Positions 36,364 to 64,000 of a stretch of 64,000 nucleotides of DNA are shown in pieces. This DNA is from a virus: the IMG/VR virus record IMGVR_UViG_3300045988_042432. The stretch is one strand, 5' to 3'. The notes below the pieces were generated by a model. The model saw nothing but the letters and a program-made list of their open reading frames with translations. It was not told the origin of the DNA and searched no databases. Numbering within the stretch: the stretch's first letter is position 1; every line of letters begins with the position of its first letter. Position numbers and translations under genes: made by a program.

Positions 36364-36556
36364 AAAACTTGTGGGCACGTTAAACCCAATCTAATTGACT
36401 TGGAACCACTACGTGAGAATCGTAGGCAACAGGGGGCAAGCGTAATGGCAGCCTGAACGACTAAACGAATGGGACTCTCATTGCTGAGAGTGTGCGATAG
36501 TCTGCACTACATGGTGACATGTAGAGGAAATCTGAAGTGATTTCCCACCTAGTACA

Positions 36557-41539: not shown

Positions 41540-42740
41540 ATTAGTAACTAAAGACAACAAGGGTAAAACTAGAGTAGTCGAGATTAGTTGCGAATGGGAT
41601 GATGCCCAACATGGCTTTGTTATAAGAAGAAAGACTTATCAGTATGGTGGCAAAGTAACTGTGCAGCCAGAGATATGGATATTCCAAGGCAAAGCCAAAA
41701 GGACTGTTGCAGAACAGGCTAAGTTAGAGTACAATTCTCATCTAAAGAAGTATACAGATAAGGGTTATAAGCTACTTCCATCCTCTGTTAACATAGAGGA
41801 TGCGAAGGCAGTTGCAGCATTTGTTGAAGAACACCTAGGTGAGGGTGTTACTGATTCAAATGGATTTAAGAAGCATATGAAAGCCAAGAAGTACGAGGAG
41901 GTAGCTACTAAGGTATTTGATAAAATCAAGTACTGGCTAGGTTCTCGTAAGATAGACGGTGTCAGATGTTCTTTCTATCTAAAGGACGGAGAGATAGTAT
42001 CTGCTAGTCGGGGAGGTGGCGATTATGACGCTTCTACAGTACACCTAAGAACACATCCCAAGATGATAGAGTTATTTAATAAGATGCCAGATTTGGTTCT
42101 CGATGGTGAACTTTACATTCACGGTCGAAGCTTGCAGTATATAAGTGGTACAGCAAGATTAGAATCTGGAGAATCCCGCTGCAATGAATTGGAATATTAC
42201 ATCTATGATACCATGGATGCTAATATGACAGCACAGGAAAGGTGGAATTATATATCTGACGAAATAGCTCCTATACTTGGAATTGTGGATTTTGACCCTA
42301 ATGCTAATTGGAATGAAGATGACCTGAAGGTTAGAATAGTTCCAGAAGAGGAAGTAGTAGGGTGGACTAACATTCAGAAGCTTCATGATAAATATGTCAG
42401 CGAAGGGTTTGAAGGTATAGTTATTAGAGACCCGGACAAACCATATAACTATGGAGGACGTACTAATGCCATGATTAAAGTCAAAATGTATCAAGACGAC
42501 GAGTTTGAGATTGTTGGCTATAGTGACGGATTACGTCCTGAAGATATGGTGTTCATATGTAAGACTCAGGCTGGTAAGGAATTTGAAGCCAAGCCTATGG
42601 GACCTAGAGAACTTAAGTATGAATATCTAGACAGAATGGATGAACTTATCGGTAAAATGGCTACTGTCAAGTATTTCTACTACTCTGACGATGGCAGACC
42701 ATTACAACCAGTACTTAAGTGCATCCGAGACTATGAATAA
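41532..42740 (+). CDS. ATP-dependent DNA ligase
   Basis: Motif I SRKIDGVR, motif IV EGIVIRD, motif V AMIKVK. Confidence 0.85.
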   Translation: MDKLVTKDNKGKTRVVEISCEWDDAQHGFVIRRKTYQYGGKVTVQPEIWIFQGKAKRTVAEQAKLEYNSHLKKYTDKGYKLLPSSVNIEDAKAVAAFVEEHLGEGVTDSNGFKKHMKAKKYEEVATKVFDKIKYWLGSRKIDGVRCSFYLKDGEIVSASRGGGDYDASTVHLRTHPKMIELFNKMPDLVLDGELYIHGRSLQYISGTARLESGESRCNELEYYIYDTMDANMTAQERWNYISDEIAPILGIVDFDPNANWNEDDLKVRIVPEEEVVGWTNIQKLHDKYVSEGFEGIVIRDPDKPYNYGGRTNAMIKVKMYQDDEFEIVGYSDGLRPEDMVFICKTQAGKEFEAKPMGPRELKYEYLDRMDELIGKMATVKYFYYSDDGRPLQPVLKCIRDYE

Positions 42741-43501: not shown

Positions 43502-43705
43502 ATGAACGAGACATTTGACTTTGGAGAAGCTCTATCTATGATGAGAGCAGGTATGACAGTTATCAACTTAAGTAAGAGACGTTACAGAATGAAGGAAGGC
43601 AATATCATCTGTCTTCCTATATCTGGTTCTAACCAGTACTACGTTGTTACTAAGTGGTTTCCTGATGCCGTTTTAAGTCAAGATTGGAGTCTAGCTGAAG
43701 ATTAG
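43502..43705 (+). CDS. DUF2829 (Tad2-like) small protein
   Basis: N-terminal FDFGEALSMMRAGMTV and C-terminal WFPDAVLSQDWSL match the DUF2829 pattern (FGEAl..mk.Gk.v ... W.Ps..DllaeDW) as I remember it. Confidence 0.55.
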   Translation: MNETFDFGEALSMMRAGMTVINLSKRRYRMKEGNIICLPISGSNQYYVVTKWFPDAVLSQDWSLAED

Positions 43706-45830: not shown

Positions 45831-46091
45831 ATGGATAATCTGTCACTATTAGCAAACCTTCCAAACCATGTTAATGGTAAGCATCTAAATGTGTATAGGT
45901 GGTTAGATGGATGTGGTTGGTCTATTGATGTGGATGGGCATCACTTCGAGAATCATAGTTTTAATCTTTTAGTACATGAAGTTTTAGAATACTTTAGTTG
46001 TTACGAACGTAGCAACGAACGTAGTGGCTATAGTCTAAAAGGAAGCAGAGAGAAGATTATTCAGAAAGTTGAATCAGATTATTTTTATTAA
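45831..46091 (+). CDS. hypothetical protein
   Basis: 86-aa ORF. Confidence 0.6.
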   Translation: MDNLSLLANLPNHVNGKHLNVYRWLDGCGWSIDVDGHHFENHSFNLLVHEVLEYFSCYERSNERSGYSLKGSREKIIQKVESDYFY

Positions 46092-46867
46092 TGGAAGATT
46101 TTAAATTTTATGAAGTAGGCGGTAAGATTAGAGATGAACTCCTAGGTCTTACCAATAAGGATGTTGATTATGTTGCTGTGCCCAGTGAGGAGTTACTGCG
46201 TAATATAGAGGAAGCACAATGTTTGGTGGACGGAATCTATCCAAATACTACTAATGCAGTCTTCACTATGTTAGAAAGCCATTTGAGGGAAGAAGGCTTT
46301 GAAATCTTCTTAGTAACTCCAGATTGCTATACTATACGTGCTAAGTTCCCAGAAGGATACAAGTATCAAGGTGTGGCAGACTTCGTAATGGCTAGAAAGG
46401 AAGTAGGATATGTCCCAGGCACTAGAACTCCCATAGTAGAACCAGGTAACTTGTATGATGATTTATCACGCAGAGATTTCACTATTAATGCTATGGCTAA
46501 AGACCCTGATACTGGAGAAATCATTGACTACTTTTATGGTAAGCATGATATAACGAATGCTTTGATAAGAACTCCCCTCGACCCTGTAACAACATTCGAT
46601 GATGACCCTCTTAGGATACTTAGAGCCATTAGGTTTGCGGTTACTAAGAGATTCACTATATGGCAGGAGACTTGGCAAGCTATGGTGTTCTACGATTATG
46701 ATGCTAAGATGTCAGTAGTGTCAGAGGAGAGAATTAGAGAGGAACTGATTAAGTGTTTTAAATGTAACACTATTAGAACCTTAACATACCTTGACTACCT
46801 TCCAAGACTTAGAGATTATATCTTTACTAAAACTAATCTATGGCTTAAGCCAACTAACGAGAAATAA
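46091..46867 (+). CDS. tRNA nucleotidyltransferase (CCA-adding enzyme family), short form
   Basis: Head-domain motifs YEVGGKIRDELLG..NKDVDYV and RRDFTINAMA. At 258 aa it lacks the usual body/tail domains. Confidence 0.75.
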   Translation: MEDFKFYEVGGKIRDELLGLTNKDVDYVAVPSEELLRNIEEAQCLVDGIYPNTTNAVFTMLESHLREEGFEIFLVTPDCYTIRAKFPEGYKYQGVADFVMARKEVGYVPGTRTPIVEPGNLYDDLSRRDFTINAMAKDPDTGEIIDYFYGKHDITNALIRTPLDPVTTFDDDPLRILRAIRFAVTKRFTIWQETWQAMVFYDYDAKMSVVSEERIREELIKCFKCNTIRTLTYLDYLPRLRDYIFTKTNLWLKPTNEK

Positions 46868-47746: not shown

Positions 47747-48654
47747 TTATATGCAGAGGGCTCCAGTGACAGGGGTCGGGAAAATCTACTTGGGCTAAAC
47801 AATGGTGTCACGAAGACCCGGAGCACAGAGTAAGATTTAACAATGATGATATTCGTAACATGTTAGGTGATTACTGGGTTCCTAATAGGGAGAAGCTAGT
47901 TACTGAAGCTAAAGCTAATATGATAACGTTTGCTTTGATTAAAGGTTACGATGTAGTAGTTGATAATATGAATCTGAATCCCAAAGAGGATGAATGGATT
48001 AGAACTCTATGTGCCAATATAGAGAAGGACAAGGGAATACATGTTGATATAGAGTATAAGGACTTTTGGACTCCTGTTGAAGAATGTATTCGCCGTGATG
48101 CTATGAGACCTAATCCTATTGGAGAGAAGGTTATTAGGCAAACTTGGAGACGTTATAAGGACTTCATAATCCATGAAGAAATTATGACAGCCAAAGCTAA
48201 GTCATTAGTTCAAGATACTAACCTACCAGCAGCAATCATTGTAGATATGGATGCAACTGTATGTTTGAATACTAGTGGCCGTCCCTTCTACGGAGAAGGT
48301 GCAGCTGAAGGTATGCTTACTGATGAGCCTATTACTCCTGTCATTGAGCTTATTAGAAACTTCTGTGATAATTATCCTGCTAAGTTAATAATTCTAACTG
48401 GTAGAGAGGATACTCCTGAAGTTCGTAAAGCTACGGAACAGTGGTTAGAGAACAATTGGTTGCATCCTGACATACTTCTCATGCGTCCTGCTAAGAGCTT
48501 TACTGCTGGTCCTATATGTAAGAAGAAACTGTATGAGGACAATATCAAAGGCAAGTTCTATATACCTTTCGTACTTGAAGACAATTGTAAGTGTGTGGAG
48601 ATGTGGAGAAATGAAGGCTTGATTTGTCTACAACCGAATGAGGGTAAGTTCTAA
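47701..48654 (+). CDS. pnk: polynucleotide 5'-kinase/3'-phosphatase (T4 Pnk-like) interrupted by in-frame TGA at 47767-47769
   Basis: The frame opens at ATG 47701 and reads ...KLIICRGLQ-TGA-QGSGKSTWAKQW.... HAD phosphatase DxDxT (IIVDMDATV) lies downstream. The annotatable uninterrupted ORF is 47860-48654. Confidence 0.7.
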
Positions 48655-50222: not shown

Positions 50223-52357
50223 TATATCTAGTCAGTAATCAAAGGTCACTATTTGAAACTGACGCTTATAAGGAATTATCTCTATCTGATGCTATAGACA
50301 TGATTATGCCACATAGTTGGGTAGAATATGATTCAGAAACTGCTGGTTTAGACCCCTATACAAAACCATTACTGTGTACTCAGTATGGTTTAGGGGAAGA
50401 CCAAATAGTTGTTGACAATGTAACTATTCCAATTGAGAAGCTTAAATGTGTCCTTGAAGACCCTACTAAGACTTTCTTAGGTTGGAATATTGCATTTGAT
50501 TTAAGGTTTCTATATCACCATAAAATAGTTCCTTATAATGTATGGGATGGAATGATTGCTGAGAAGTTACTCTATCTTGGCTATCCTCCCCAGTTTCATA
50601 GTCTTTCTTTAAAAGCAGCAGCTGATAACTATCTTGGTATAGATATTGATAAAACTGTTCGAGGGCAGATTATCACTCAAGGATTAACCATACCAGTGGT
50701 ACAATATGCTGCTGGTGATGTTATGTATCTTACTAAGATTAAAGAGAAGCAAGATGCAGAATTAGAGAAGAAGGAATTAACTAAAGCTGCCGAATTTGAA
50801 ATGAAGTTTACCCCAGTAATTGCCTATATGGAATATTGTGGAGCTAAACTTGACCCAGTAAAATGGAAGCAGAAAATGATTCGAGATAAGGAGGAAGTTA
50901 ATAAAGCAGAAGCTAAGCTTAACGAGTGGGTTGAAAATTATTATAATGAACATAAATCTTCTGAAGGCTATATTAAAGCCTGCACAGAGGAAGTGGACAT
51001 TATGCATGAGAATCAACTATTTGACAAAGTAGGCCCTCATATGGGACAAATAAAGAGGGTTTGTAATCCACAAACTGGGCTAATTCATTATGAATATGAC
51101 AAACCTTTCCCATATGTTACCAAGAATCTACAAGGCGATTTGTTCAGTGGATTTGATGCTTCAGCTAAGTGTAACATTAACTGGTCTAGTAGTCAACAAG
51201 TAGTTCCACTATTTGAAATGTTGGGACTTAATTGTACTACCATTGATGCTAAAACTAAGCAGAAGAAGAAATCTGCTGATATTAAGTTGATAAAGCCACA
51301 AGCACATAAGTGTAGTATAGTTCCTCTTTATGTAGAATATAAGAAGGCTAAAATTCTAGTTGATACCTTTGGACAGAAGTTCATAGATAAAATTAATCCA
51401 GTAAGTGGTAGGATTCATCCAGACTATTTTCAATTAGGAGCTGATACTGGGCGGTTATCCGCTACTAACCCGTCTTTAATGAATTTGCCGCATGACCCAT
51501 TTACTAGGTCGTGTTTCATTTCTGATACTGGGTATAAATGGATTAGTTGTGATTATAAAGGACAGGAGTCTTTCTTAATGGCATCTATTGCCAATGATAA
51601 GGCGATGTTGGAAGAGCTTATCTATGGTAGTGGTGACTTACACAGTCTAACTGCCAGAATAGTATTTACAGACATCCCCGATGACACTCCACTATCTGAA
51701 GTTAAAGCTAAATATAAACCTCTTAGAGATGCTGCTAAAGGGTATGAATTTTGTTTTAATTATGGTGGAGATTGGAACACTTTAATGAAGAATTATGGTC
51801 TTACTAAGGCAAGAGCTCAAGAAGTATATAATAACTATATGTCTGGTTTCTCTGGACTAAAGAGATATCAGGAGTTTAGGAGAGAAGATGTCCTTGATAA
51901 GGGATATATCCTTCTTAATCCTATTACTAAGCATAAGGCATTTATATATGACTGGGACAATCTGTGTAAAATCGACGGTGAACTTGGGTCTCCTGAAGCT
52001 AAGTATATGCTAGGGCGTAGTGGGGACAATTATTATAAAACAAGCTCACAGCATTTGAGAAGAAGGTTATCTGATTCCATGAAGCAATCTATTAACTATC
52101 CGATACAACATGCTGGTTCTATGTGTTTCAAGTTGTCTGCAATTAAGTTCTTCAATTGGCTAAGGAAGAACAATCTGCTATTTATAGTTAAATATTGTGT
52201 TCCCGTACATGATGAACATAATGTTGAAGCACCGGATGATATTGCTGAAGAAGTAGGTAATGTACTAGTTAAATGTATGGAAAGTGGAGGCGAACCATTT
52301 TGTGTACGTGCTCATTTAGGTGCTGATATATCAATTGAAGACCATTGGGTACATTAA
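50219..52357 (+). CDS. family A DNA polymerase with 3'-5' exonuclease domain
   Basis: Exo I YDSETAGL. Pol motif A SCDYKGQESF, motif B RDAAKGYEFCFNYG, motif C VPVHDEH. Confidence 0.9.
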   Translation: MIYLVSNQRSLFETDAYKELSLSDAIDMIMPHSWVEYDSETAGLDPYTKPLLCTQYGLGEDQIVVDNVTIPIEKLKCVLEDPTKTFLGWNIAFDLRFLYHHKIVPYNVWDGMIAEKLLYLGYPPQFHSLSLKAAADNYLGIDIDKTVRGQIITQGLTIPVVQYAAGDVMYLTKIKEKQDAELEKKELTKAAEFEMKFTPVIAYMEYCGAKLDPVKWKQKMIRDKEEVNKAEAKLNEWVENYYNEHKSSEGYIKACTEEVDIMHENQLFDKVGPHMGQIKRVCNPQTGLIHYEYDKPFPYVTKNLQGDLFSGFDASAKCNINWSSSQQVVPLFEMLGLNCTTIDAKTKQKKKSADIKLIKPQAHKCSIVPLYVEYKKAKILVDTFGQKFIDKINPVSGRIHPDYFQLGADTGRLSATNPSLMNLPHDPFTRSCFISDTGYKWISCDYKGQESFLMASIANDKAMLEELIYGSGDLHSLTARIVFTDIPDDTPLSEVKAKYKPLRDAAKGYEFCFNYGGDWNTLMKNYGLTKARAQEVYNNYMSGFSGLKRYQEFRREDVLDKGYILLNPITKHKAFIYDWDNLCKIDGELGSPEAKYMLGRSGDNYYKTSSQHLRRRLSDSMKQSINYPIQHAGSMCFKLSAIKFFNWLRKNNLLFIVKYCVPVHDEHNVEAPDDIAEEVGNVLVKCMESGGEPFCVRAHLGADISIEDHWVH

Positions 52358-52358
52358 T

Positions 52359-52829
52359 ATGATTGAAGTTGAAAGAAAGTATTTAGTGAAAAACAATAGC
52401 TATAAGATGCAGGCTCAAAGAGCAGGATTGATAGTCCAGGGTTATCTTGGAGACAATCCTCTCTCTGAAACTAGGATAGCTATTAGGGACAATCATGGTT
52501 GGCTATTTATTAAAGCTAAGGGAACCCTTAGTCGTTTTGAATGGCAACAAGAAATCCCATTGTATGAAGCACAGGAGCTTCTAAAGTTCTGTCCTAATAT
52601 TATCCGTAAGGTACGCTACATAGTATATCACATGGGTAACAAATGGGAAATTGATGAGTTCTTAGGAGAGAATGAAGGGTTAGTAATTGCCGAGTGTGAG
52701 TTATCACAGGCAACTCTCAACCCTCCTCTGCCTGATTTTGTAGGAGAAGAGGTTACAGAAGATACTAAGTATTATAACTATAACCTCGCGTCTAACCCTT
52801 ATATGAACTGGGACGATGACTCTGAATGA
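52359..52829 (+). CDS. CYTH-domain (triphosphate tunnel metalloenzyme) protein
   Basis: N-terminal MIEVERKYLV is the ExExK CYTH signature. About 156 aa. Confidence 0.65.
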   Translation: MIEVERKYLVKNNSYKMQAQRAGLIVQGYLGDNPLSETRIAIRDNHGWLFIKAKGTLSRFEWQQEIPLYEAQELLKFCPNIIRKVRYIVYHMGNKWEIDEFLGENEGLVIAECELSQATLNPPLPDFVGEEVTEDTKYYNYNLASNPYMNWDDDSE

Positions 52830-55812: not shown

Positions 55813-56021
55813 AAGTTGAAGTGAATAGAAATGACGAAATGCCAAAAGCAGGAGACCTAGTAATAGACGAGCTTGGAAATATTGGCATCCTAATGCACAA
55901 TGGTTATATTTGGCTTCTTAAGCATTCAGGAAAGCCTGTAGACGTTCCAACCCTAGTAAGTTACACTGATTCCGACAAATTGTACAAGTTTGAGGGAACT
56001 GTGACTCTTAGTAATGATTAA
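55809..56021 (+). CDS. hypothetical protein
   Basis: 70-aa ORF. Confidence 0.55.
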   Translation: MKVEVNRNDEMPKAGDLVIDELGNIGILMHNGYIWLLKHSGKPVDVPTLVSYTDSDKLYKFEGTVTLSND

Positions 56022-56241
56022 GACTTATTACTATGCAATAGATAAAGATGGGCAGGGTTGGTATTACGACAACCCGCCTATCTTTGACGGTGAAAGCTGG
56101 AATGTGGACCCTACGTATGACTGCTTAGAATGTATGGGAGCTGTTAATGATTTACATCCTGCAAATCTATTTAGCTTTCCAATTCCGGAAGATATGACGT
56201 ATGAAGATGAACCTATAAAATTTGAAATATGTCTAAAGTAG
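56014..56241 (+). CDS. small W/D/E-rich protein, tandem family member 1
   Basis: YYAIDKDGQGWYY...DGESW...IKFEI pattern shared with 56497, 56748 and 57002. Confidence 0.55.
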   Translation: MIKTYYYAIDKDGQGWYYDNPPIFDGESWNVDPTYDCLECMGAVNDLHPANLFSFPIPEDMTYEDEPIKFEICLK

Positions 56242-56516
56242 TTACAGTTCACGGGCATACTCTAGAATTAGATATGGGGCCTTCTTGTCCAAATCCTGGG
56301 ATAAGAAGACAGCTGGACGCTAAAGGTGAGCCTTACATGTGCACATCTGACCTGACCACTTGGATAGGGATAGACGGGGATTGGTATCGTATATACAAAC
56401 CTAGTATAACCTTAGAGTGGCCTGGTATTTTAGAACTGGCTGAAACTGAAGACGAGTTATTAGATTATTTAGAGGACGTATCTGAATTTACTAGAAATGA
56501 GAAAGGAAATAACTAA
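56229..56516 (+). CDS. hypothetical protein
   Basis: 95-aa ORF. Confidence 0.55.
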   Translation: MSKVVTVHGHTLELDMGPSCPNPGIRRQLDAKGEPYMCTSDLTTWIGIDGDWYRIYKPSITLEWPGILELAETEDELLDYLEDVSEFTRNEKGNN

Positions 56517-56751
56517 CCCAGTGGGTAAGTGGTGGGTAGTCGCCAATAGATGTGGAGACCTTCATGTAACCGATGGTGACATGCCGGAGAAAGCTGGCAG
56601 CGGTTGGCAAGGAATGAATAACGACTATGAGTGGACTTCTGCCACAGATGATGTATTTAAAGACTGTGTTATTCCAGCTACTACATTTGATAAAGGCCCA
56701 CTACAATTTGAGATTGATGAACAGTTAAACACAACTTGGTATAAAGAATGA
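56497..56751 (+). CDS. small W/D/E-rich protein, tandem family member 2
   Basis: KWWVVANRCGD...GSGW...LQFEI. Confidence 0.55.
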   Translation: MRKEITNPVGKWWVVANRCGDLHVTDGDMPEKAGSGWQGMNNDYEWTSATDDVFKDCVIPATTFDKGPLQFEIDEQLNTTWYKE

Positions 56752-56999
56752 AACGATTTTGGTGTTGTAGAGACTTAGAAGGAGCTGCTAACGAGGAAGT
56801 ATTTCTGTTTGTTGGAGAAGAACCACCAATTATGGACGATGATGGTGAGTGGGTAGACCCAAGAAAAGAAGGTCTGTTTTGGTCGGAAGAAGACTTCAAT
56901 TTTGACTTCGATAAACTTCTAGGAACCGTTAAGTTCCCTGAGTTAAATAAAGGTGAACGGATTGAGATGAATCTTCAGTTTGAATTTGGAATTAAGTAA
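56748..56999 (+). CDS. small W/D/E-rich protein, tandem family member 3
   Basis: RFWCCRD...DDGEW...IEMNLQFEF. Confidence 0.55.
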   Translation: MKRFWCCRDLEGAANEEVFLFVGEEPPIMDDDGEWVDPRKEGLFWSEEDFNFDFDKLLGTVKFPELNKGERIEMNLQFEFGIK

Positions 57000-57001
57000 C
57001 T

Positions 57002-57244
57002 ATGCGTTATTGGTATTGTATAGACAACAACGGCAATAAGTGGCTTTACGAAGGGTCAGTGGCTCCAGTTAAATATGATGATGAATGGAATACTTCTGAT
57101 GAAGAGACAGATGACTCTACTTGGATAGGAGAGTTCGATTTAAGAGCTACCTATGGTGTAGGTTTTGTTGAATCACTTCCAGATATTGCTAATGGTGAGA
57201 TGACTGAAATACGGATTAAATATACAGCCGAGAAATGCGAATAG
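57002..57244 (+). CDS. small W/D/E-rich protein, tandem family member 4
   Basis: RYWYCIDNNGNKWLY...DDEW...TEIRIKY. Confidence 0.55.
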   Translation: MRYWYCIDNNGNKWLYEGSVAPVKYDDEWNTSDEETDDSTWIGEFDLRATYGVGFVESLPDIANGEMTEIRIKYTAEKCE

Positions 57245-57939
57245 GAGTTACATCTGATTTACACGGAGTACTTCCCGCAGTTGAAGAATGTGATATATTT
57301 CTCATCTGTGGAGATATCATGCCGTTAAATATACAACTAAACATGCCTAAATCTAGGCTATGGCTTCAAAATACGTTTATTCCATGGGCTAATGGGTTAC
57401 CATGTAAACATGTAGTATTCATAGCTGGTAATCATGACTTCTGGTTTGAAAGAAATGGAGGTTTGGAACCAGATATGTACAACATGTTTCATAAGCCTAC
57501 TGACGGCAAATTGGTGTATCTACATAATAAGTCTTGGGAATATGAGCATGAAATCGAGCCAGGAGTATTCAAGAAGTTTAAAATCTTCGGAACTCCCTAC
57601 TGTAAGCAATTTGGTAATTGGGCGTTCATGAGAGAGCCTGAACGCCTGGAAGCTAAGTATGCTCATATGCCTAGTGATTGTGATATTCTTATATCTCACG
57701 ATGCTCCTAGACTACTTGGGCTAGGTGAGATACATGAAGGAGCGTGGGCAGGAGAAGATGCGGGTAATACATGGTTAGCCGATGAAATCATGCGTAAACA
57801 ACCTAAACATTGTTTCTGCGGACACATTCACAGTGGATGTCATGGAATACAGGAATTTAATGGCATGAAGTTCTCTAACGTATCGTTAGTAAATGAAGAT
57901 TATGTAGTTTCTTACAAACCTCTATATTTGAATGTTTAA
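57235..57939 (+). CDS. metallophosphoesterase
   Basis: GVTSDLHG, CGDI, AGNHD, SHDAP, GHIH motifs. Confidence 0.8.
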   Translation: MRIGVTSDLHGVLPAVEECDIFLICGDIMPLNIQLNMPKSRLWLQNTFIPWANGLPCKHVVFIAGNHDFWFERNGGLEPDMYNMFHKPTDGKLVYLHNKSWEYEHEIEPGVFKKFKIFGTPYCKQFGNWAFMREPERLEAKYAHMPSDCDILISHDAPRLLGLGEIHEGAWAGEDAGNTWLADEIMRKQPKHCFCGHIHSGCHGIQEFNGMKFSNVSLVNEDYVVSYKPLYLNV

Positions 57940-58171
57940 AAGGATGCCAACTGAAAAGGTAGTTTATACATCTGGCGGCTCTAGCCTATTAACTGCTATA
58001 GCCATAGTATTTGTAATTCTTAAATTAACAGGAACAACTGCTGTTGCAACATGGTCATGGTGGTGGGTACTTGCTCCATTATGGCTGCCAGTAGTCTTCG
58101 CTATAGGTATTGTATTAGTGTTACTTCTAATACTGCTAATAGTTGCCGCAATAGCAGCGTGTTCTAAATAA
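57932..58171 (+). CDS. small membrane protein
   Basis: Two long hydrophobic helices. Confidence 0.55.
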   Translation: MFKRMPTEKVVYTSGGSSLLTAIAIVFVILKLTGTTAVATWSWWWVLAPLWLPVVFAIGIVLVLLLILLIVAAIAACSK

Positions 58172-58174: not shown

Positions 58175-58753
58175 ATGGATAAGATTTTATTAATTGTAGA
58201 CCCACAGGTGGATTTCATCAGTGGGTCTTTAGCTGTGGAAGGAGCTAAGGAGAAGATAGATGCTCTTGCTAGTGCATTACAGAACGGTGAAATTGACTGT
58301 GACTATGTAATGGTTACTAAGGACTTTCACCCATCTAACCACTGCTCCTTTAAAGAGAACGGAGGCCAATGGCCTCCACATTGTGTTAAAGGTACTACTG
58401 GTAGTTGTATATATGCCCCACTATGGAGTGTAATATGCAACTACGCCTATCGTAAAGATACAGACATCTTTATTAAAGGAGATAGTCCTGACAAAGAAGA
58501 GTATAGTATCTTTGATAATCTAGAAAGTCTTTCTGTTATATCAGACATATTACTTGATTTTGAGTCTGACCCAGACAATGAGATTAGAGTAGTTGGTATA
58601 GCTGGTGATTATTGTGTGCATGAAACTATATGTGACTTGATAGCTATGGGCTATAAAGATAACATTGTAGTAGACACTAAGTATATTGCATCCATAGATG
58701 GTGGAGATAAACTTGCTAATTTAATTAAAAACTGTGGTTTAAAATGGGATTAA
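58175..58753 (+). CDS. pncA: nicotinamidase (isochorismatase fold)
   Basis: LLIVDPQVDF (Asp), KDFHPSNHCSF (metal site), IFIKGD (Lys), GIAGDYCVHET (Cys). Confidence 0.8.
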   Translation: MDKILLIVDPQVDFISGSLAVEGAKEKIDALASALQNGEIDCDYVMVTKDFHPSNHCSFKENGGQWPPHCVKGTTGSCIYAPLWSVICNYAYRKDTDIFIKGDSPDKEEYSIFDNLESLSVISDILLDFESDPDNEIRVVGIAGDYCVHETICDLIAMGYKDNIVVDTKYIASIDGGDKLANLIKNCGLKWD

Positions 58754-59040
58754 TTTATTCAGTATCGGTTTTGTTCTTCACATTCATGATATTTAGAATG
58801 TATCTAAAGAAGGACATTAGACCCTATATGACAAGTAGAGTGGTTACTTTACTCACAATTCTAGGGTTGTTGCCTTATGTAAATACGGTAATTATAATTG
58901 CAACTCTCGGTGATGCTGTTGTTAAATTCAATGAATACAGGAATCTTACTAAGCAAGAGAGGACAGACAGAATGATAGAATCATTGCAGCTCATTGACTT
59001 AGCAATGGAGAGATTAATTGATAAATTTAAAGAGAAATGA
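58744..59040 (+). CDS. small membrane protein
   Basis: Two TM segments. Sits between pncA and pncB. Confidence 0.55.
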   Translation: MGLIYSVSVLFFTFMIFRMYLKKDIRPYMTSRVVTLLTILGLLPYVNTVIIIATLGDAVVKFNEYRNLTKQERTDRMIESLQLIDLAMERLIDKFKEK

Positions 59041-60200
59041 TAGTAAAATCCATTCTTGATACGGATTTGTATAAATTTACAACTTCGTATGCTTACATGA
59101 AACTATTTCCTCAAGCTAGAGGAACATTTGAGTTCTTTGACCGTGACTTGACAGAGTATCCAGAAGACTTTGTTCAGAAGGTGTACTTGGAGTTAAGTAA
59201 TCTTGGAATGTTACGTCTTACCAATAGTGAACTTGATTATATGACTTCTAACTGTAGATTTGTTCCACAAGTCTACTGGGAATGGTTATATTCTTTCAGG
59301 TTTAACTCTGGCAAAGTGCAAGTATGGCTTGATGACAAGAAACATCTTCATATTACTGTTACTGATTATCTGTACAAAGTAACACTATATGAAGTTCCTA
59401 TTCTAGCCATTATATCTGAACTACGTAATCGTGTATTAGGTAACAACTGTGACATGTCAGAAGTCATTAAGAAGCTTGAACCTAAGTTAAGGTTGTCGAA
59501 TGTTGCAGGAATAAAATTCTCTGAATTTGGTACCAGAAGACGGTTCAGTTATAATGTACAGGATGAGGTAGTATCTGCAATTAAGGAAGGTTCTATCTAT
59601 TGTACTGGCACTTCTAACTGCTATCTGGCTATGAAATATGAAATGCCTATGATGGGAACTCATCCGCATGAGTGGTTCATGTTCCACGGTGCTATGTATG
59701 GCTATAAACAGGCTAATTACATGGCTCTTGAGAATTGGGTAAATGTGTATGACGGTGATTTGGGAATAGCATTGTCTGACACATATACTTCTGAAGTGTT
59801 CATGAAGAACCTGTCTCGCAAGCAAGCTAAATTGTTTGACGGAGTAAGATGTGACTCTGGCGATGAGTTTAAGTTCATAAACAGTATGATTGCTCGTTAT
59901 AAAGAACTTGGAGTAGACCCTACTACTAAGACTATAGTATTCAGTAATGCTTTGGACTTTGACAAATGCCAGGACATTATGGAGTATTGTGGAAGTAGAA
60001 TCAGGTGTTCGTTTGGAATAGGCACTAATCTCACTAATGATACTGGGTTTAAGCCGGCTAATATAGTGATGAAGCTTATTAGCTGTCAAATGAATGCTAA
60101 TCAACCTGTTTATGGATGCGTGAAGCTGTCTGATGATGCCGGTAAACATACTGGAGAAAATAAAGAAGTTAATGCTTGTTTAGTTGAATTAGGATTATGA
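59037..60200 (+). CDS. pncB: nicotinate phosphoribosyltransferase
   Basis: N-terminal ILDTDLYKFT and EFGTRRRFS, characteristic of PncB. Confidence 0.85.
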   Translation: MIVKSILDTDLYKFTTSYAYMKLFPQARGTFEFFDRDLTEYPEDFVQKVYLELSNLGMLRLTNSELDYMTSNCRFVPQVYWEWLYSFRFNSGKVQVWLDDKKHLHITVTDYLYKVTLYEVPILAIISELRNRVLGNNCDMSEVIKKLEPKLRLSNVAGIKFSEFGTRRRFSYNVQDEVVSAIKEGSIYCTGTSNCYLAMKYEMPMMGTHPHEWFMFHGAMYGYKQANYMALENWVNVYDGDLGIALSDTYTSEVFMKNLSRKQAKLFDGVRCDSGDEFKFINSMIARYKELGVDPTTKTIVFSNALDFDKCQDIMEYCGSRIRCSFGIGTNLTNDTGFKPANIVMKLISCQMNANQPVYGCVKLSDDAGKHTGENKEVNACLVELGL

Positions 60201-61159
60201 GTGAACTAAATTATGAACACGTATTTAACGTATTAGTTGATAAAACAGCTGAATACGTTACTTCTAACAACCTTAAAGCAATGGTATTGGGCATCAGTGG
60301 AGGAATTGACTCCACTGTTGTCGCTGCTATCTGCCATGAGGTTAGTAAGAAGACTGGTATTCCTCTTATAGGAAGAAGTCTTCCTATTAAGAATAAAAGT
60401 GATGAGTTCGCTACTTCTGTACATGTAGGAGAAGCCTTCTGTAATGAATTTAGTGTTTACAGACTTGAACGTTCCTATCGTGCAGCTTTGTTTGATGCCT
60501 GTGCTGATGCAGGTGATGTCAATATGGCTAATTCTTACTATCTCGATGAACTAGAAGAAATGCCTAGTAGAACTCCTATTGCTAATGGTAATCTTCAAGC
60601 TAGGTGCAGAATGATGTATCTATATGATATAGCTAGTCGCCATAAAGGATTAGTAATGAGTACAGATAATCAAACTGAATATCAGCTTGGATTCTGGACT
60701 ATTCATGGTGATGTAGGTGATTTTGACCCAATTCAAGACCTATGGAAGACAGAAGTTTATGAGTTAGCTAAGTGGATTAGTAATCGCTATAAAAACATTG
60801 AACACCACCATACTATAATGACTGGTGCTGGAAGTAAATCTGATGCTATAGAGTTATCTATAGCTCTTACTCCTACGGACGGTCTTGGCATTAGTAACAG
60901 TGACTTAGAGCAAATTGGAGCTAAGAGTTACGATGAGGTTGATGATATACTCTCTAGATATATTCCATTTAAGGAGTATCGACAGAAGCATGGAGAACCA
61001 CTTCATCCACATGATGAAATAGCAGAATCTGATTGCTGGTCACAATTATGTGTTAGGCATGGAGAAGATGTAGTCAATAAGGTTTGGAGCCGACATTTAG
61101 CTTCCGAATTTAAACGTAAGAAAGCTCCAATTTATATATCTAGGGAATTATATGAATGA
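60197..61159 (+). CDS. nadE: NH3-dependent NAD+ synthetase
   Basis: PP-loop LGISGGIDSTV with downstream NadE-like core. Confidence 0.85.
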   Translation: MSELNYEHVFNVLVDKTAEYVTSNNLKAMVLGISGGIDSTVVAAICHEVSKKTGIPLIGRSLPIKNKSDEFATSVHVGEAFCNEFSVYRLERSYRAALFDACADAGDVNMANSYYLDELEEMPSRTPIANGNLQARCRMMYLYDIASRHKGLVMSTDNQTEYQLGFWTIHGDVGDFDPIQDLWKTEVYELAKWISNRYKNIEHHHTIMTGAGSKSDAIELSIALTPTDGLGISNSDLEQIGAKSYDEVDDILSRYIPFKEYRQKHGEPLHPHDEIAESDCWSQLCVRHGEDVVNKVWSRHLASEFKRKKAPIYISRELYE

Positions 61160-62255
61160 TTTAGAGAGAAGGGTTCACACAGCTATTAAAGAGTGTTATG
61201 ATGTAGTCATAGCCCCAACTTACGGGTTAGGTTCTGCATTAGCCGCTGTATTTATGAAGATACATGGAAGAGCTCCACATAGGGCGACTTTTAGAACAGA
61301 TTATTATGCAGTAGACTTACCAGAAGGACGAGAATGGTCAGATGCAGAATCTAAAGGAAAGATTAAATCTATTTCCGGAAGTAAATCTATAGACTATTGG
61401 GCAACTCAACACAACCTTTTAAAGTTGTTTCCAGATGCAGTTCATATAAGGTGGGGAGATGATTACTTCTTATTTACTGATGAGTATATTATAGACCTTC
61501 AGGACCTAGAAATTCTAATGTTGAATACTGATGATATTCCAAAAGAAATAGTAGATTGCTTGGTATATAAAGAGGCTAAAGCTACTATGGAATACGTAAC
61601 CTACAGTAATCAAGGATTCAGAACCACACTAATGAAAGTAAAAGAACAAGATTGTGATATACAATCTAATTATAATGATGACTTACCACATCAACAAATA
61701 ACCGATATGATAAATTCCAAGGAAAGTGGAATTGCCATACTACACGGAGTTCCTGGTTGCGGTAAGACTAGTTATATTAGAAAGCTAATAGCCGACAATC
61801 CAGGTAAGAAGTTTGTGTTCTTAGACGCTTCTACGTTTCAATACATTGGGGATGCTTCATTTATTGAACTTCTTACTAATAAGAGAGATTCAGTGTTTGT
61901 AGTAGAAGACTGCGAGGACTTATTAGTAAGTAGGGACACTAAAGGAAATCACAGAATATCCTCTTTACTAAACCTGTCAGACGGTATACTTGGAGACTCT
62001 TTAAACCTTAAGTTCATATGTACCTTTAATGCTGATATTAGTAGTATTGATAAAGCATTATTACGTAAAGGAAGATTGAAAGTTAAATATGAATTTGGTA
62101 AACTTACCAAAGATAAAGCTACTGCCTTAGCTGTTAAACTTGGTAAGACTGAACCTGTAACTGAAGACATGGCATTGTGTGATGTCTATAACTTAGGCAC
62201 AGACAATGGTGGTGAACAAATTGAAAGTGATAGACCTAAAATTGGATTTAGATGA
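61152..62255 (+). CDS. AAA+ ATPase with unknown N-terminal domain
   Basis: Walker A HGVPGCGKTS, Walker B VFVVEDCEDL, second region of homology with LLRKGRL. Confidence 0.75.
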   Translation: MNDLERRVHTAIKECYDVVIAPTYGLGSALAAVFMKIHGRAPHRATFRTDYYAVDLPEGREWSDAESKGKIKSISGSKSIDYWATQHNLLKLFPDAVHIRWGDDYFLFTDEYIIDLQDLEILMLNTDDIPKEIVDCLVYKEAKATMEYVTYSNQGFRTTLMKVKEQDCDIQSNYNDDLPHQQITDMINSKESGIAILHGVPGCGKTSYIRKLIADNPGKKFVFLDASTFQYIGDASFIELLTNKRDSVFVVEDCEDLLVSRDTKGNHRISSLLNLSDGILGDSLNLKFICTFNADISSIDKALLRKGRLKVKYEFGKLTKDKATALAVKLGKTEPVTEDMALCDVYNLGTDNGGEQIESDRPKIGFR

Positions 62256-62509
62256 AAATGAAATTGTATTATGGAGCCTTGGCCTTGCTTTGGCTCCTTT
62301 CTAGTTGTACTCCCAGTGATAATGTAACTGACAACCATGACAAGGTTGGAACTTGTCGTAATGGTCATATCAGAGCTCTTACTTTGAATGGTCATACATA
62401 TTACTGGCAAAATCATTGGTTTGCACATGCAGGAGACTGTAAGAAGTGTAAGCATGAACTTGATAGTATAGTTAAAGCAGCAGTTAAGGAGGCAATGCAA
62501 TGCGAGTAG
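62252..62509 (+). CDS. small lipoprotein
   Basis: Signal peptide with lipobox LLSSC. Confidence 0.6.
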   Translation: MKMKLYYGALALLWLLSSCTPSDNVTDNHDKVGTCRNGHIRALTLNGHTYYWQNHWFAHAGDCKKCKHELDSIVKAAVKEAMQCE

Positions 62510-63075
62510 GATTATTCTTTGGCTCATTTGACCCTCCCCATATCGGGCATGTAAATGTGGTAATGGGAGCCATTAACTCCAATCAGGTGGATAGAGTGTT
62601 AGTGATTCCTGCTTATCAAAACTTATGGAAGGAGAATAGCTCTAAATTTTCATATAGGTATGCTATGAGTTGTATGCAATTCGACACTTTGCCTTTTGTA
62701 CATGTAAGTGATGTAGAGAAAGACTTAGCAGGTCCTGCTTATCCCAGAGGTATACCTACATACGTTGTACTGGAGGAATTAAAGTCTAGAATGCCAGAGG
62801 ATGAATTAGTAATTATTACTACTCCAGAAACCTATAAGGATATTCCTGAATGGCATAAAGGGTCTGTAATATTGTGTGACTATAAATTCCTCATGGTGGT
62901 AAGTGGAGAGGAGACCCCACAAGACCTTCCGGAGAATGTACATGTTGTATACGTTCCGCAAATAACAATATGCTCTACTTGCATTCGCAATAGAGTAAAG
63001 CTTGGAATATACATCCAGCCATTTGTAAGAGATACTGTAGAAGCATTCATTGACCAATATAGATTATATGTATAA
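62500..63075 (+). CDS. nadD: nicotinate/nicotinamide mononucleotide adenylyltransferase
   Basis: GLFFGSFDPPHIGH ((H/T)xGH motif) and ICSTCIRNR (ISSTxxR-like). Confidence 0.8.
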   Translation: MRVGLFFGSFDPPHIGHVNVVMGAINSNQVDRVLVIPAYQNLWKENSSKFSYRYAMSCMQFDTLPFVHVSDVEKDLAGPAYPRGIPTYVVLEELKSRMPEDELVIITTPETYKDIPEWHKGSVILCDYKFLMVVSGEETPQDLPENVHVVYVPQITICSTCIRNRVKLGIYIQPFVRDTVEAFIDQYRLYV

Positions 63076-63103
63076 AAGCTGGATTAACTGAAGAATTTTA
63101 CTA

Positions 63104-63658
63104 ATGAAGAATTATCCTATTACAATTGAAACAGGTGAACATGCTGGGGAGACAGTCTGGGTTCACCGTAGTATAGCCGTTGCAGGATTTATATTTTGTA
63201 AAATTAACGATGAATGGTGTGTTCTTGCTAATCAAAGAGGTGAAGGAGCACCAGACTTTCAAGGATATTGGAACTGTCCTTGCGGCTATTTGGACTTTGA
63301 TGAGACATTAGCAGAAGCTTGCTCTAGGGAAATCTACGAGGAAACTGGAGTTAAGATTGAACCTAGTGCTCTTTATATGTGTAGCGTTAACGATGACCCG
63401 AAAGACTCTAACAGACAGAATGTTACTATGAGGTTCATGGCTGTAGTAGACGAGAGTCATATTGGAATTTCTACTAATGCTATCAAAGGACAGCTAGGCG
63501 GAGAGGAGAATGAGGTAAAGGCTATCATGTGGGTTAAAATATCTGACCTTGATAATTACCAGTGGGCGTTTAATCATAGACATCTCATTGAAGGCATCTT
63601 TTATACTTATGTAGATTATGAAGAAGTAGAAGGTTTAGACGATTTATTTGCTGAATGA
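63104..63658 (+). CDS. Nudix hydrolase
   Basis: Nudix box GYLDFDETLAEACSREIYEETGV. Confidence 0.85.
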   Translation: MKNYPITIETGEHAGETVWVHRSIAVAGFIFCKINDEWCVLANQRGEGAPDFQGYWNCPCGYLDFDETLAEACSREIYEETGVKIEPSALYMCSVNDDPKDSNRQNVTMRFMAVVDESHIGISTNAIKGQLGGEENEVKAIMWVKISDLDNYQWAFNHRHLIEGIFYTYVDYEEVEGLDDLFAE

Positions 63659-64000
63659 CATACTTCATTAGTGGACACAGAGACATAACTCCTGAAGAAT
63701 TTGAGAAGTTCTACGTTCCAGCAATTGTTGATGTGATAGATACATGCAACGATAATTACGATGACTGTGAATTTGTAGTCGGAGATTGTAGGGGTTGTGA
63801 TGAAATGGCAGCTAATTTCATAGCAAACTACATTAAGGAGAATACAGATGATACAGAGTGTCCTCCATGTATTTTGTGCATTTATCATATGTTCTCTGAA
63901 CCTAGGTTTAGAGTAGGCGTAGCTGGACAAGACGGTTGTTATCATGTTGACATGGTAGATGAGCTCAATGCAGACTTATGCGAGGATGATGACCCATATA
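63655..64000 (+). CDS. hypothetical protein, 3'-truncated by window edge (possible SLOG/DUF2493-like)
   Basis: ATGA overlap with the Nudix stop. Frame is open to the window end. MTYFISGHRD...VVGDCRGCDEMAANF. Confidence 0.55.
   Translation, partial: MTYFISGHRDITPEEFEKFYVPAIVDVIDTCNDNYDDCEFVVGDCRGCDEMAANFIANYIKENTDDTECPPCILCIYHMFSEPRFRVGVAGQDGCYHVDMVDELNADLCEDDDPY

What the first reader, a model, noticed from the sequence alone, without database searches (positions are those of the whole stretch)
58175..63658. Complete nicotinamide-to-NAD+ (PncA-PncB-NadD-NadE) pathway plus Nudix in one phage gene block: candidate NAD+-reconstitution counter-defence distinct from NARP1/NARP2
**Seen in sequence.** Consecutive + strand genes carry the diagnostic motifs of:
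- nicotinamidase (LLIVDPQVDF, KDFHPSNHCSF, GIAGDYCV)
- nicotinate phosphoribosyltransferase (ILDTDLYKFT, EFGTRRRFS)
- NAD synthetase (GISGGIDS)
- NaMN adenylyltransferase (GSFDPPHIGH, ICSTCIRNR)
- a Nudix hydrolase (GYLDFDETLAEACSREIYEETGV)

**Established knowledge.** These four enzymes form the deamidating Preiss-Handler salvage route Nam -> NA -> NaMN -> NaAD -> NAD+. Nicotinamide is the product left by TIR/SIR2/SEFIR-type NADase immune effectors. The described phage pathways NARP1 (Adps + Namat) and NARP2 (Nampt + Nmnat) use different chemistry.

**Inference.** The block lets the phage rebuild NAD+ from the debris of abortive-infection NADases by a third, four-step route. The same window has a Tad2-like gene, which fits an anti-NADase theme.
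Basis: partly seen in the sequence, partly recalled or inferred. Interest (0 to 1): 0.8.

Follow-up and report, generated by a model that had tools for sequence, protein, structure and literature searches.

The report
Phage-borne nicotinamide-to-NAD+ salvage gene block
A large human-gut phage carries intact genes for all four steps that turn nicotinamide back into NAD+, plus an ADP-ribose-type Nudix hydrolase; this probably keeps NAD+ up in infected cells, but the same idea is already published for related phages, and about half of this phage's close relatives have lost the pathway.

Summary
Window 58175-63658 (+ strand) encodes PncA, PncB, NH3-type NadE, NadD and a Nudix hydrolase. All five have HMM support and intact catalytic motifs, and all are under purifying selection (dN/dS 0.05-0.27). 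The Nudix model is closest to the ADP-ribose-binding Nudix domains of NrtR and NadM.

The five genes are not strictly consecutive. A 98-aa membrane protein, a 367-aa AAA+ ATPase and an 85-aa lipoprotein-like ORF lie between them, and relatives lack or replace these.

The phage is an uncultivated human-gut phage (contigs up to about 190 kb), probably infecting Bacteroidota: its PncB is 69-70% identical to Bacteroides PncB.

- A Nam-to-NAD+ route distinct from NARP1 and NARP2 is well supported.
- It is not a new idea. A 2024 paper reported pncB-nadD-nadE clusters in gut jumbo phages and proposed counter-defence. NARP3 now names PnuC+NadR.
- Counter-defence remains untested.
- No Tad2-like gene was found.

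New here: the enzyme order is conserved across diverged relatives. Only 10 of 22 informative close relatives keep all five genes, through at least 12 independent lesions, most of them deletions, several at short direct repeats. The module is therefore accessory and often lost.

Verdict: new member of a known kind; moderate interest.

The parts
58175..58753 (+). PncA-like nicotinamidase (192 aa): Nam -> nicotinate + NH3
   Evidence: PF00857 38.4 bits. NF008623 reaches 73.8 bits, below its cut-off of 174. Top PDB hits are nicotinamidases. D8, the Lys of 'FIKGD', the Cys of 'GDYCV', and the Zn ligands in 'DFHPSNH' and 'PPHCV' align to yeast Pnc1 2h0r. dN/dS 0.10-0.22.
58744..59040 (+). 98-aa ORF with hydrophobic segments; not an NAD enzyme, variable among relatives
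   Evidence: No Pfam, NCBIfam or PHROG hit. Only 35-43% identical, or undetectable, in diverged relatives.
59037..60200 (+). PncB nicotinate phosphoribosyltransferase (387 aa): NA + PRPP (+ATP) -> NaMN
   Evidence: TIGR01514 413 bits and NF003704 443 bits, both above cut-off. PF04095 and PF17767 present. PDB 2IM5 (P. gingivalis) E 8e-116, with 'GTHPHEW' conserved. 69-70% identical to Bacteroides PncB. dN/dS 0.05-0.08.
60197..61159 (+). NadE, single-domain NH3-dependent NAD+ synthetase (320 aa): NaAD -> NAD+ (or possibly NaMN -> NMN)
   Evidence: TIGR00552 135.5 bits (cut-off 63.65), PF02540. PP-loop GISGGIDS. Best PDB hits are Campylobacter, Helicobacter and Francisella NadE. Conserved catalytic segments are interleaved with mosaic variable cassettes.
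61152..62255 (+). AAA+ ATPase (367 aa) inserted between NadE and NadD; function unknown, not a core part
   Evidence: PF00004 43.8 bits, phrog_14322. Weak PDB hits to classical AAA proteins (Afg2, Bcs1, Rpt). Present only in the window's clade and in L016, absent from the other relatives.
62252..62509 (+). 85-aa ORF with a lipoprotein-like signal (…LLSSC); travels with the AAA+ gene
   Evidence: No family hit. It co-occurs with the AAA+ gene in relatives. The lipobox is read from the sequence.
62500..63075 (+). NadD-type NaMN adenylyltransferase (191 aa): NaMN + ATP -> NaAD
   Evidence: PF01467 29.9 bits (cut-off 21). NadD equivalogs are the best NCBIfam hits but fall below cut-off (93.6 against 150; 85 against 112). 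Full-length alignments to solved NadD structures, with 'PPHIGH' and 'ICSTCIRNR' aligned to the NadD motifs.
63104..63658 (+). Nudix hydrolase (184 aa), probably an ADP-ribose pyrophosphatase
   Evidence: PF00293 50.8 bits with an intact GX5EX7REUXEEXGU box. AF2 model pLDDT 87. Best PDB folds are the NrtR Nudix domain with ADPR (3gz8, E 3.5e-10) and the NadM-Nudix ADPR pyrophosphatases 2qjt/2r5w. Too short for NrtR's C-terminal DNA-binding domain.
57235..57939 (+). Conserved upstream neighbour: MPPED2-like metallophosphoesterase (234 aa); link to the pathway unknown
   Evidence: PF00149. PDB MPPED2 E 5e-9. PADLOC PDC-S10 E 1.4e-38. Sits immediately upstream of PncA in every full-length relative.
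63655..64000 (+). Start of a conserved downstream gene (181 aa in MT835470; runs off the window): possible YspA/SLOG-like protein
   Evidence: Follows the Nudix gene in nearly all relatives that retain the downstream region. One homologue is named 'YspA' in nr. PF10686 gives weak hits in 6 of 32 homologues, best E 0.0016. The confident AF2 model (pLDDT 88.5) has no significant PDB match.

Best explanation
The block is a working, accessory NAD+ salvage module carried by a large human-gut phage of about 180-190 kb, probably infecting Bacteroidota.

Proposed steps:
1. PncA deamidates nicotinamide to nicotinate.
2. PncB joins nicotinate to PRPP to give NaMN.
3. NadD adenylates NaMN to NaAD.
4. The ammonia-dependent NadE amidates NaAD to NAD+.
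5. The Nudix enzyme most likely splits ADP-ribose into AMP and ribose-5-phosphate. This removes ADPR and returns ribose-phosphate to the host PRPP pool that PncB draws on.

The genes lie in a long, tightly packed, co-directional replication and nucleotide-metabolism unit, so they are probably expressed with DNA-replication genes.

The net effect is to keep NAD+ up in the infected cell from the breakdown products of NAD+. The most likely selective benefit is survival of NAD+ depletion by host NADase defences (TIR, SIR2, DSR and the like), as shown experimentally for the two-step NARP2.

Shown here: enzyme family membership, catalytic motifs, conserved gene order, purifying selection, and frequent natural loss.
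Inferred: the activities, the ADPR specificity of the Nudix, expression timing, and the counter-defence role.
For: - HMM and structure-sequence evidence supports all five enzymes, with catalytic residues in place.
- The Nudix model is closest to ADPR-binding Nudix domains tied to NAD metabolism.
- The order PncA-PncB-NadE-NadD-Nudix is kept in 25 viral contigs whose proteins have diverged to 74% (PncB), 36% (PncA) and 30% (NadD) identity, while the intervening ORFs change.
- dN/dS is 0.05-0.27 for all five genes.
- Start and stop codons overlap or nearly abut, so there is no room for separate regulation, and no riboswitch was found.
- The phage setting is clear: DnaB, primase, PolA, NrdD, ThyX, ligase and tRNAs in the window, and IMG/VR and GenBank phage matches.
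- The same enzyme set was assembled independently in other phages. Sinorhizobium phage Phosso has NadE-PncB-Nudix-NMNAT-isochorismatase in one cluster. Agrobacterium phage Atu_ph07 and two huge phages carry subsets.
- NARP2, also built from classical salvage enzymes, abolishes Thoeris and DSR2 defence (bioRxiv 10.1101/2024.02.11.579819).
- The patchy, often-lost distribution fits an accessory gene set of conditional value.
Against: - There is no experimental evidence for any activity or for any effect on defence.
- The route costs three ATP-consuming steps plus PRPP, which is more than NARP1-3. That seems ill suited to a cell in an energy and NAD+ crisis.
- In a sample anchored on the neighbouring gene, only 10 of 22 informative close relatives keep all five genes. 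The module is therefore often of no use, or costly.
- No NAD+-consuming phage enzyme, no Tad2 and no other recognisable anti-NADase gene was found in the window to support a defence theme.
- PncA and NadD score below the NCBIfam equivalog cut-offs.
- The NadE substrate (NaAD or NaMN) cannot be told from sequence.
- The phage encodes no PRPP synthetase in the window.
Confidence: 0.6

Rival explanations
1. The block is a general metabolic booster. It raises or maintains NAD(P) for phage replication whatever the host's defences. Possible reasons are continuing NAD+ turnover after host shut-off, or the needs of the phage's own ThyX and nucleotide metabolism. It would have no specific role against NADase immunity.
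For: The block sits inside the replication and nucleotide-metabolism module, next to ThyX, NrdD and dUTPase. NARP2 raised NAD+ even without a defence system. PMC11662467 offers this reading as well. No anti-defence gene is recognisable nearby.
Against: A generally useful booster should not be deleted in about half of close relatives. Starting from nicotinamide and pairing with an ADPR-type Nudix matches the two products of NADases. The probable hosts already have this pathway, since Bacteroides PncB is 69-70% identical. A second copy would matter mainly when NAD+ is actively destroyed.
Confidence: 0.28
2. Same enzymes, different order. NadE acts as an NMN synthetase (NaMN -> NMN), as in Francisella, and the adenylyltransferase then makes NAD+ from NMN.
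For: Francisella NadE (3fiu) is the third-best solved homologue of the phage NadE. The Nudix resembles the Nudix domain of Francisella NadM (2qjt/2r5w).
Against: The adenylyltransferase's best matches are all NadD, whose members are named nicotinate-nucleotide adenylyltransferases. H. pylori and Campylobacter NadE rank above Francisella NadE. No residue-level test of substrate preference was possible.
Confidence: 0.12
3. The Nudix enzyme, perhaps with the flanking metallophosphoesterase, the YspA/SLOG-like protein and (in relatives) a TIR-like protein, destroys or sequesters ADPR-derived immune signals such as Thoeris cyclic ADPR isomers. The salvage enzymes would then be secondary.
For: The Nudix model is closest to ADPR-binding domains. 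A weak TIR_2 match (E 1.4e-5, below cut-off) lies between NadD and Nudix in relatives. The downstream gene has weak YspA/SLOG signals, and the ThsA SLOG domain appears among its weak fold hits. The metallophosphoesterase resembles MPPED2 and the PADLOC candidate PDC-S10.
Against: All of these matches are weak or generic. The SLOG assignment is not significant by fold search (best E 0.2). The TIR-like gene is absent from the window. Nothing indicates activity on cyclic ADPR.
Confidence: 0.08
4. The block is a decaying passenger picked up from bacteria. It has no current function in this phage.
For: There are many independent deletions and one pseudogene among relatives. PncB has a host-like origin.
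Against: All five ORFs in the window are intact with catalytic motifs. dN/dS is 0.05-0.27 across lineages with saturated synonymous divergence. Order is conserved despite 30-75% protein divergence.
Confidence: 0.04

Closest known systems
Preiss-Handler NAD+ biosynthetic clusters of 'NAD-jumbo phages' (Microbiome 2024, PMC11662467; e.g. Kuafu_71 with pncB-nadD-nadE, Bacteroidota hosts)
   Same: PncB, NadD and NadE are phage-encoded and clustered. The setting is the gut and the host is probably Bacteroidota. The paper proposes the same roles: an NAD+ supply, possibly as counter-defence. Both cases rest on bioinformatics only.
   Different: The contigs here reach only about 190 kb, below the paper's 200-kb jumbo threshold. 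Here PncA is shown to sit in the same block, so the route starts from nicotinamide, and an ADPR-type Nudix belongs to the conserved order. The frequent natural loss was not reported there. Relatedness to the Kuafu clade could not be tested.
NARP2 (Nampt + Nmnat, Vibrio phage KVP40; Osterman et al. 2024)
   Same: It rebuilds NAD+ from nicotinamide with classical salvage-type enzymes, needs PRPP and ATP, and is phage-encoded. From my own knowledge, not checked here: the KVP40 adenylyltransferase is fused to a Nudix domain.
   Different: NARP2 takes two amidated steps through NMN. This block takes four steps through the deamidated intermediates NA, NaMN and NaAD. Its phosphoribosyltransferase is a PncB equivalog, not Nampt. 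NARP2 is experimentally validated; this block is not.
NARP1 (Adps + Namat) and NARP3 (PnuC + NadR)
   Same: Both are phage pathways that restore NAD+ under NADase attack.
   Different: The window has no Prs-like Adps, no Namat, no PnuC and no NadR. NARP1 re-uses ADPR directly and NARP3 imports nicotinamide riboside. This block uses nicotinamide and, at most, recycles ADPR indirectly through ribose-5-phosphate.
Bacterial nicotinamide salvage operons (for example Pseudomonas pncA-pncB1-nadE, PA4918-4920)
   Same: The enzyme set is the same, and there is a Nudix-fold partner linked to ADP-ribose. The phage Nudix is structurally closest to the NrtR Nudix domain. The host pncA-pncB1-nadE operon is induced by phage PA5oct infection (PMC7318152). 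That this operon is controlled by NrtR is my own knowledge, supported here only by a cited title on an ADP-ribose-dependent regulator of NAD metabolism in P. aeruginosa.
   Different: The phage Nudix is 184 aa, too short for NrtR's DNA-binding domain. It keeps a full catalytic Nudix box, so it is probably an enzyme rather than a repressor.
NAD gene cluster of Sinorhizobium jumbo phage Phosso (PV764938)
   Same: NadE, PncB, a Nudix, an NMN/NaMN adenylyltransferase and an isochorismatase-family hydrolase lie within 6 kb in a cultured phage.
   Different: The phage lineage and host are unrelated, the gene order differs, and the proteins are only 25-33% identical. That cluster also has a nucleoside 2-deoxyribosyltransferase-like gene. 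It looks like an independent assembly of the same pathway.

Membership tests
Nicotinamidase PncA (isochorismatase-like cysteine hydrolase) | Isochorismatase-fold domain scoring above the Pfam threshold | tested here: met
   PF00857 38.4 bits against a cut-off of 27.
Nicotinamidase PncA (isochorismatase-like cysteine hydrolase) | Asp-Lys-Cys catalytic triad and Asp/His/His metal site | tested here: met
   All residues align to yeast Pnc1 2h0r: D8, DxH in 'DFHPSNH', H in 'PPHCV', K in 'IKGD', C in 'DYCV'.
Nicotinamidase PncA (isochorismatase-like cysteine hydrolase) | Score above the NCBIfam equivalog cut-off | tested here: not met
   NF008623 73.8 bits against a cut-off of 174. The protein is a divergent member.
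Nicotinate phosphoribosyltransferase PncB | Equivalog-level HMM score, both NAPRTase domains, conserved active-site His region | tested here: met
   TIGR01514 413 bits (cut-off 270). PF17767 and PF04095 both present. 'GTHPHEW' aligns with 2IM5.
NH3-dependent NAD+ synthetase NadE | NAD_synthase domain with PP-loop SGGxDS and no glutaminase domain | tested here: met
   TIGR00552 135.5 bits (cut-off 63.65). GISGGIDS is present. The 320-aa protein has only PF02540.
NH3-dependent NAD+ synthetase NadE | Substrate is NaAD rather than NaMN | not testable with these tools
   Both H. pylori NadE and Francisella NadE are among the best solved homologues.
NaMN adenylyltransferase NadD | Nucleotidyltransferase fold with HxGH and ISSTxxR motifs; full-length similarity to NadD | tested here: met
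   PF01467 is above cut-off. 'PPHIGH' and 'ICSTCIRNR' align to the motifs of solved NadD structures over residues 2-190.
NaMN adenylyltransferase NadD | Score above the NCBIfam equivalog cut-off | tested here: not met
   NF000840 93.6 against 150; TIGR00482 85 against 112.45.
ADP-ribose pyrophosphatase (Nudix) | Intact Nudix box | tested here: met
   G-YLDFD-E-TLAEACS-RE-I-Y-EE-T-G-V. PF00293 50.8 bits.
ADP-ribose pyrophosphatase (Nudix) | Specificity for ADP-ribose | tested here: inconclusive
   The best fold matches are the NrtR Nudix domain with ADPR and NadM-Nudix. NUDT15, NudC and MutT-type enzymes follow closely. Sequence hits are generic.
NARP1 | Prs-like Adps plus Namat | tested here: not met
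   No Prs-like or Nampt/Namat-type protein was found. The only phosphoribosyltransferase is a PncB equivalog.
NARP2 | Nampt (Nam -> NMN) plus Nmnat | tested here: not met
   The phosphoribosyltransferase is a PncB equivalog. Its PHROG match to the nicotinamide PRT family is weak (E 3e-11, partial). The adenylyltransferase is NadD-type.
NARP3 | PnuC transporter plus NadR-like kinase/adenylyltransferase | tested here: not met
   No PnuC was found. NadR models give only marginal N-terminal hits to the NadD-like protein. See PMC13464706.
Phage Preiss-Handler cluster ('NAD-jumbo phage' type, PMC11662467) | pncB, nadD and nadE encoded together on a phage genome | tested here: met
   literature.
Phage Preiss-Handler cluster ('NAD-jumbo phage' type, PMC11662467) | Genome larger than 200 kb | tested here: inconclusive
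   Most carrying contigs are 80-191 kb, and lengths of 176-191 kb recur. No closed genome was available.
Tad2 (DUF2829) anti-Thoeris sponge in the same window | Match to DUF2829 or to solved Tad2 structures | tested here: not met
   Pfam scans of the roughly 100 + strand ORFs scanned gave no DUF2829 hit. The best candidate, 43502-43705, has no PDB or annotated phage homologue.

The most novel reading that the evidence does not exclude
The block would be a fourth, experimentally unrecognised kind of phage NAD+ reconstitution pathway. It would run through the deamidated four-step route and start from nicotinamide. Its ADPR-pyrophosphatase would recycle the other half of cleaved NAD+ through ribose-5-phosphate and PRPP. 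Its conserved neighbours (an MPPED2-like phosphoesterase, a YspA/SLOG-like protein and, in relatives, a TIR-like protein) would also act on ADPR-derived molecules. The repeated deletions would then record an ongoing arms race, in which the module helps only on hosts with NADase defences and is otherwise costly or sensed by the host.
Probability: 0.3. Interest if true: 0.6.

Novelty: new member of a known kind. Interest (0 to 1): 0.4.

Why it matters
If the block restores NAD+ under NADase attack, any complete salvage route can serve as phage counter-defence, including the costly deamidating one. It would extend such counter-defence to abundant, uncultivated gut phages of Bacteroidota.

The natural series of intact and deleted variants gives a ready-made comparison for testing when the pathway pays off.

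The practical gain over published work is modest. The gene set and the hypothesis are already in print, and what is missing is the experiment.

Tried and rejected
- **Tad2-like gene.** The best candidate by eye was 43502-43705 ('FDFGEAL…'). It gave no Pfam hit, no PDB hit below E 0.4, and no annotated phage homologue. A pooled Pfam scan of 70 further ORFs found no DUF2829, TIR, SIR2, Macro or ART domain. Rejected.
- **NAD+-consuming phage enzymes as a reason for the pathway.** The ligase is ATP-type, and no other consumer was found in the window.
- **Riboswitch or other RNA element controlling the block.** Rfam at gathering thresholds found only five tRNAs elsewhere in the window.
- **AAA+ ATPase as part of the pathway.** Rejected as a core part, because it is absent from most diverged relatives that keep all five enzymes. 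Its function remains unknown.
- **Downstream gene as a SLOG domain.** It has weak Pfam YspA hits and an nr name. A confident model found no significant PDB match. Left as tentative.
- **Stop-codon recoding to explain the two in-frame stops in the L009 PncA.** Rejected. The stops replace Leu and Gly, and four sister contigs have sense codons at those positions.
- **Supplementary tables of PMC11662467.** These are not held, so the number of phages with pncA there could not be checked.
- **A 'NARP4' in the literature.** No relevant paper was found.

Full report
**What is there**

The window is a one-strand stretch with positive GC skew throughout. It comes from the replication and nucleotide-metabolism arm of a phage. 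It encodes an SF2 helicase, a DnaB-type helicase, a Toprim primase, a PD-(D/E)XK nuclease, anaerobic ribonucleotide reductase, an SF1 helicase, an ATP-dependent ligase, a family A DNA polymerase, ThyX, dUTPase, RNase H, a CCA-adding-type nucleotidyltransferase, a PNKP-type phosphatase and five tRNAs.

The finding's span is 93% identical to an unannotated 117-kb 'Bacteriophage sp.' record from human faeces, MT835470. It also matches 25 IMG/VR viral contigs.

**Are they the claimed enzymes?**

- PncB is unambiguous. It scores 413 bits on TIGR01514 (cut-off 270) and matches the Porphyromonas gingivalis NAPRTase structure 2IM5 at E 8e-116.
- NadE passes the TIGR00552 cut-off, has the PP-loop and lacks a glutaminase domain. 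It is therefore the ammonia-dependent single-domain type. Its nearest solved relatives are from Campylobacter, Helicobacter and Francisella.
- PncA and NadD are divergent and fall below the NCBIfam equivalog cut-offs. Both pass their Pfam thresholds.
  - PncA's best solved homologues are nicotinamidases, and the Asp-Lys-Cys triad and the metal ligands align to yeast Pnc1.
  - NadD aligns end to end with solved NadD proteins, including the HxGH and ISSTxxR-type motifs.
- The Nudix protein has a complete catalytic box. A confident model (pLDDT 87) is closest to the ADP-ribose-bound Nudix domain of NrtR and to the ADP-ribose pyrophosphatase domains of NadM. Other Nudix classes follow closely, so ADP-ribose specificity is likely but not shown.

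**Anatomy and conservation**

In relatives the order is kept: metallophosphoesterase, small Trp-rich membrane protein, PncA, PncB, NadE, NadD, Nudix, then a conserved downstream gene. This holds while PncB falls to 74% identity, PncA to 36% and NadD to 30%. The AAA+ and lipoprotein pair is found only in the window's clade and one other contig, and other small ORFs take its place elsewhere.

All five enzymes are under purifying selection, with dN/dS of 0.05-0.27. Neighbouring starts and stops overlap or nearly abut, so the block is part of a long transcription unit rather than a separate operon. No Rfam element lies in it.

**Host and origin**

PncB is 69-70% identical to proteins named as Bacteroides PncB. 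Many carrying contigs are 176-191 kb. This points to a Bacteroidota phage just under the 200-kb 'jumbo' line.

**A new observation: the module is often lost**

Close relatives were sampled through the upstream metallophosphoesterase gene rather than through PncB.
- Of 25 close contigs, 22 reach far enough to judge, and only 10 keep all five enzymes.
- The others carry different deletions. One removes PncA to NadE. Several remove the PncB-NadE junction and create in-frame fusions. One is internal to PncB. Others remove PncB to Nudix, PncA to NadD, or NadE through the gene downstream of Nudix.
- One further contig has a PncA with two stop codons.
- The deleted contigs checked for this contain no Ns. 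Several junctions lie at short direct repeats, for example 'GGAGAAGAT' and 'TGGAGTTAAG'.
- I count at least 12 independent events.
- Fusion proteins of the same kinds are also common in the protein collection.
- More distant relatives of the anchor gene have no NAD genes nearby.

The module is therefore functional where intact, but clearly dispensable.

**How it most likely works**

Established biochemistry of these families gives Nam -> NA (PncA) -> NaMN (PncB, using PRPP and ATP) -> NaAD (NadD, ATP) -> NAD+ (NadE, NH3 and ATP). The Nudix enzyme would turn ADP-ribose into AMP and ribose-5-phosphate, which host PRPP synthetase can return to PncB. That last link is my inference.

Nicotinamide and ADP-ribose are the products of NADase defence effectors. 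NARP2, also made of classical salvage enzymes, abolishes Thoeris and DSR2 defence. Counter-defence is therefore the most likely benefit. The conditional value implied by frequent loss fits that reading.

It is still an inference. A defence-independent NAD+ boost is a serious rival. A Francisella-type order (NaMN -> NMN -> NAD+) cannot be excluded.

**Comparison with what is known**

- The chemistry differs from NARP1, NARP2 and NARP3.
- A 2024 paper reported that 174 gut jumbo phages encode complete salvage or Preiss-Handler pathways. It gave a pncB-nadD-nadE cluster (Kuafu_71) and Bacteroidota hosts as examples. It proposed counter-defence against NAD+ depletion, pending experiments.
- A 2026 paper says the same of a Xanthomonas phage.
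- I also found the same enzyme set in other phages:
  - the cultured Sinorhizobium jumbo phage Phosso, with all five types within 6 kb;
  - Agrobacterium phage Atu_ph07;
  - two huge metagenomic phages.

The finding is thus a new member of a known, published but untested kind.

**The Tad2 claim**

It is not supported. No DUF2829 match appeared in any scanned ORF, and the best candidate by eye has no relevant homologue.

**Verdict**

Novelty is limited to three points: PncA and an ADPR-type Nudix belong to the conserved block, the phage group lies below the jumbo threshold, and the block shows a striking pattern of repeated natural loss. Interest is moderate at 0.4.

Noticed in passing
window 60197-61159, compared with L001-L026: NadE is mosaic. 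Phages whose flanking genes are 98-100% identical have NadE only 73-90% identical. Three variable cassettes (around residues 68-130, 190-240 and 260-280) occur in alternative alleles that reassort independently. The catalytic segments between them are invariant. This could reflect recombination among co-circulating phages or diversifying selection on surface loops.
   Followed up: partly
L009 10979-11407; L013 11046-11504; L016 12228-12686; L019 11509-11985: Diverged relatives carry a 142-158-aa ORF between NadD and Nudix that starts 'VYISYS…'. The L009 copy matches Pfam TIR_2 at E 1.4e-5, 26 bits, just below the cut-off of 28. The L013, L016 and L019 copies gave no Pfam hit. The window has only 28 bp at this position. 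A TIR-like gene inside a phage NAD block is odd.
   Followed up: partly
window 63655-64000 (full gene in L001 25516-26061): A conserved gene overlaps the Nudix stop codon and follows the Nudix gene in nearly all relatives that retain that region. Its motifs are FISGHRD, VVGDxxGxD and SGTAQNIxRR. Weak evidence points to the YspA/SLOG family, but a confident model has no significant PDB match. Homologues also show internal deletion variants.
   Followed up: partly
window 57235-57939 and 57932-58171: An MPPED2-like metallophosphoesterase matches the PADLOC candidate PDC-S10 at E 1.4e-38. With a small Trp-rich membrane protein, it lies directly upstream of PncA in the relatives examined in the PncB-anchored sample. 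Homologues of the phosphoesterase also occur without any NAD genes in more distant phages.
   Followed up: partly
L030 (LR756501.1 416000-438000): The 735-kb huge phage has PncA-like, NadE-like and PncB-like genes within about 8 kb by tblastn. PMC11662467 states that this phage carries only nadD.
   Followed up: partly
window 41532-42740, 46091-46867, 47860-48654; L001 26994-27899: The phage encodes what looks like an RNA-repair set: an ATP-dependent DNA/RNA ligase-type protein, a CCA-adding/poly(A) polymerase head-domain protein and a PNKP-type HAD phosphatase. Downstream of the window there is also a HAD_SAK_2 + YqeY protein. This may counter tRNA-cleaving defences.
   Followed up: no
window 32012-36456: The anaerobic ribonucleotide reductase gene appears to be split. 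One NRDD match is in an ORF of the pooled scan, probably 33967-34746. The main NrdD ORF is 34750-36456. Homing-endonuclease-type ORFs (HNH_3, NUMOD1, DUF723) lie just upstream.
   Followed up: no
window 56014-57244: Several tandem ORFs of about 80 aa, rich in Trp and acidic residues, show weak mutual similarity. 56748-56999 against 57002-57244 gives 27% identity and E 2.5e-4 in a six-sequence database. This suggests a small paralogous family of unknown function just upstream of the block.
   Followed up: partly
window 52320-52829 and 16620-17261: A CYTH-domain protein (E 2.2e-5) and a ferritin-like protein (E 4.5e-13) are encoded in the replication arm.
   Followed up: no
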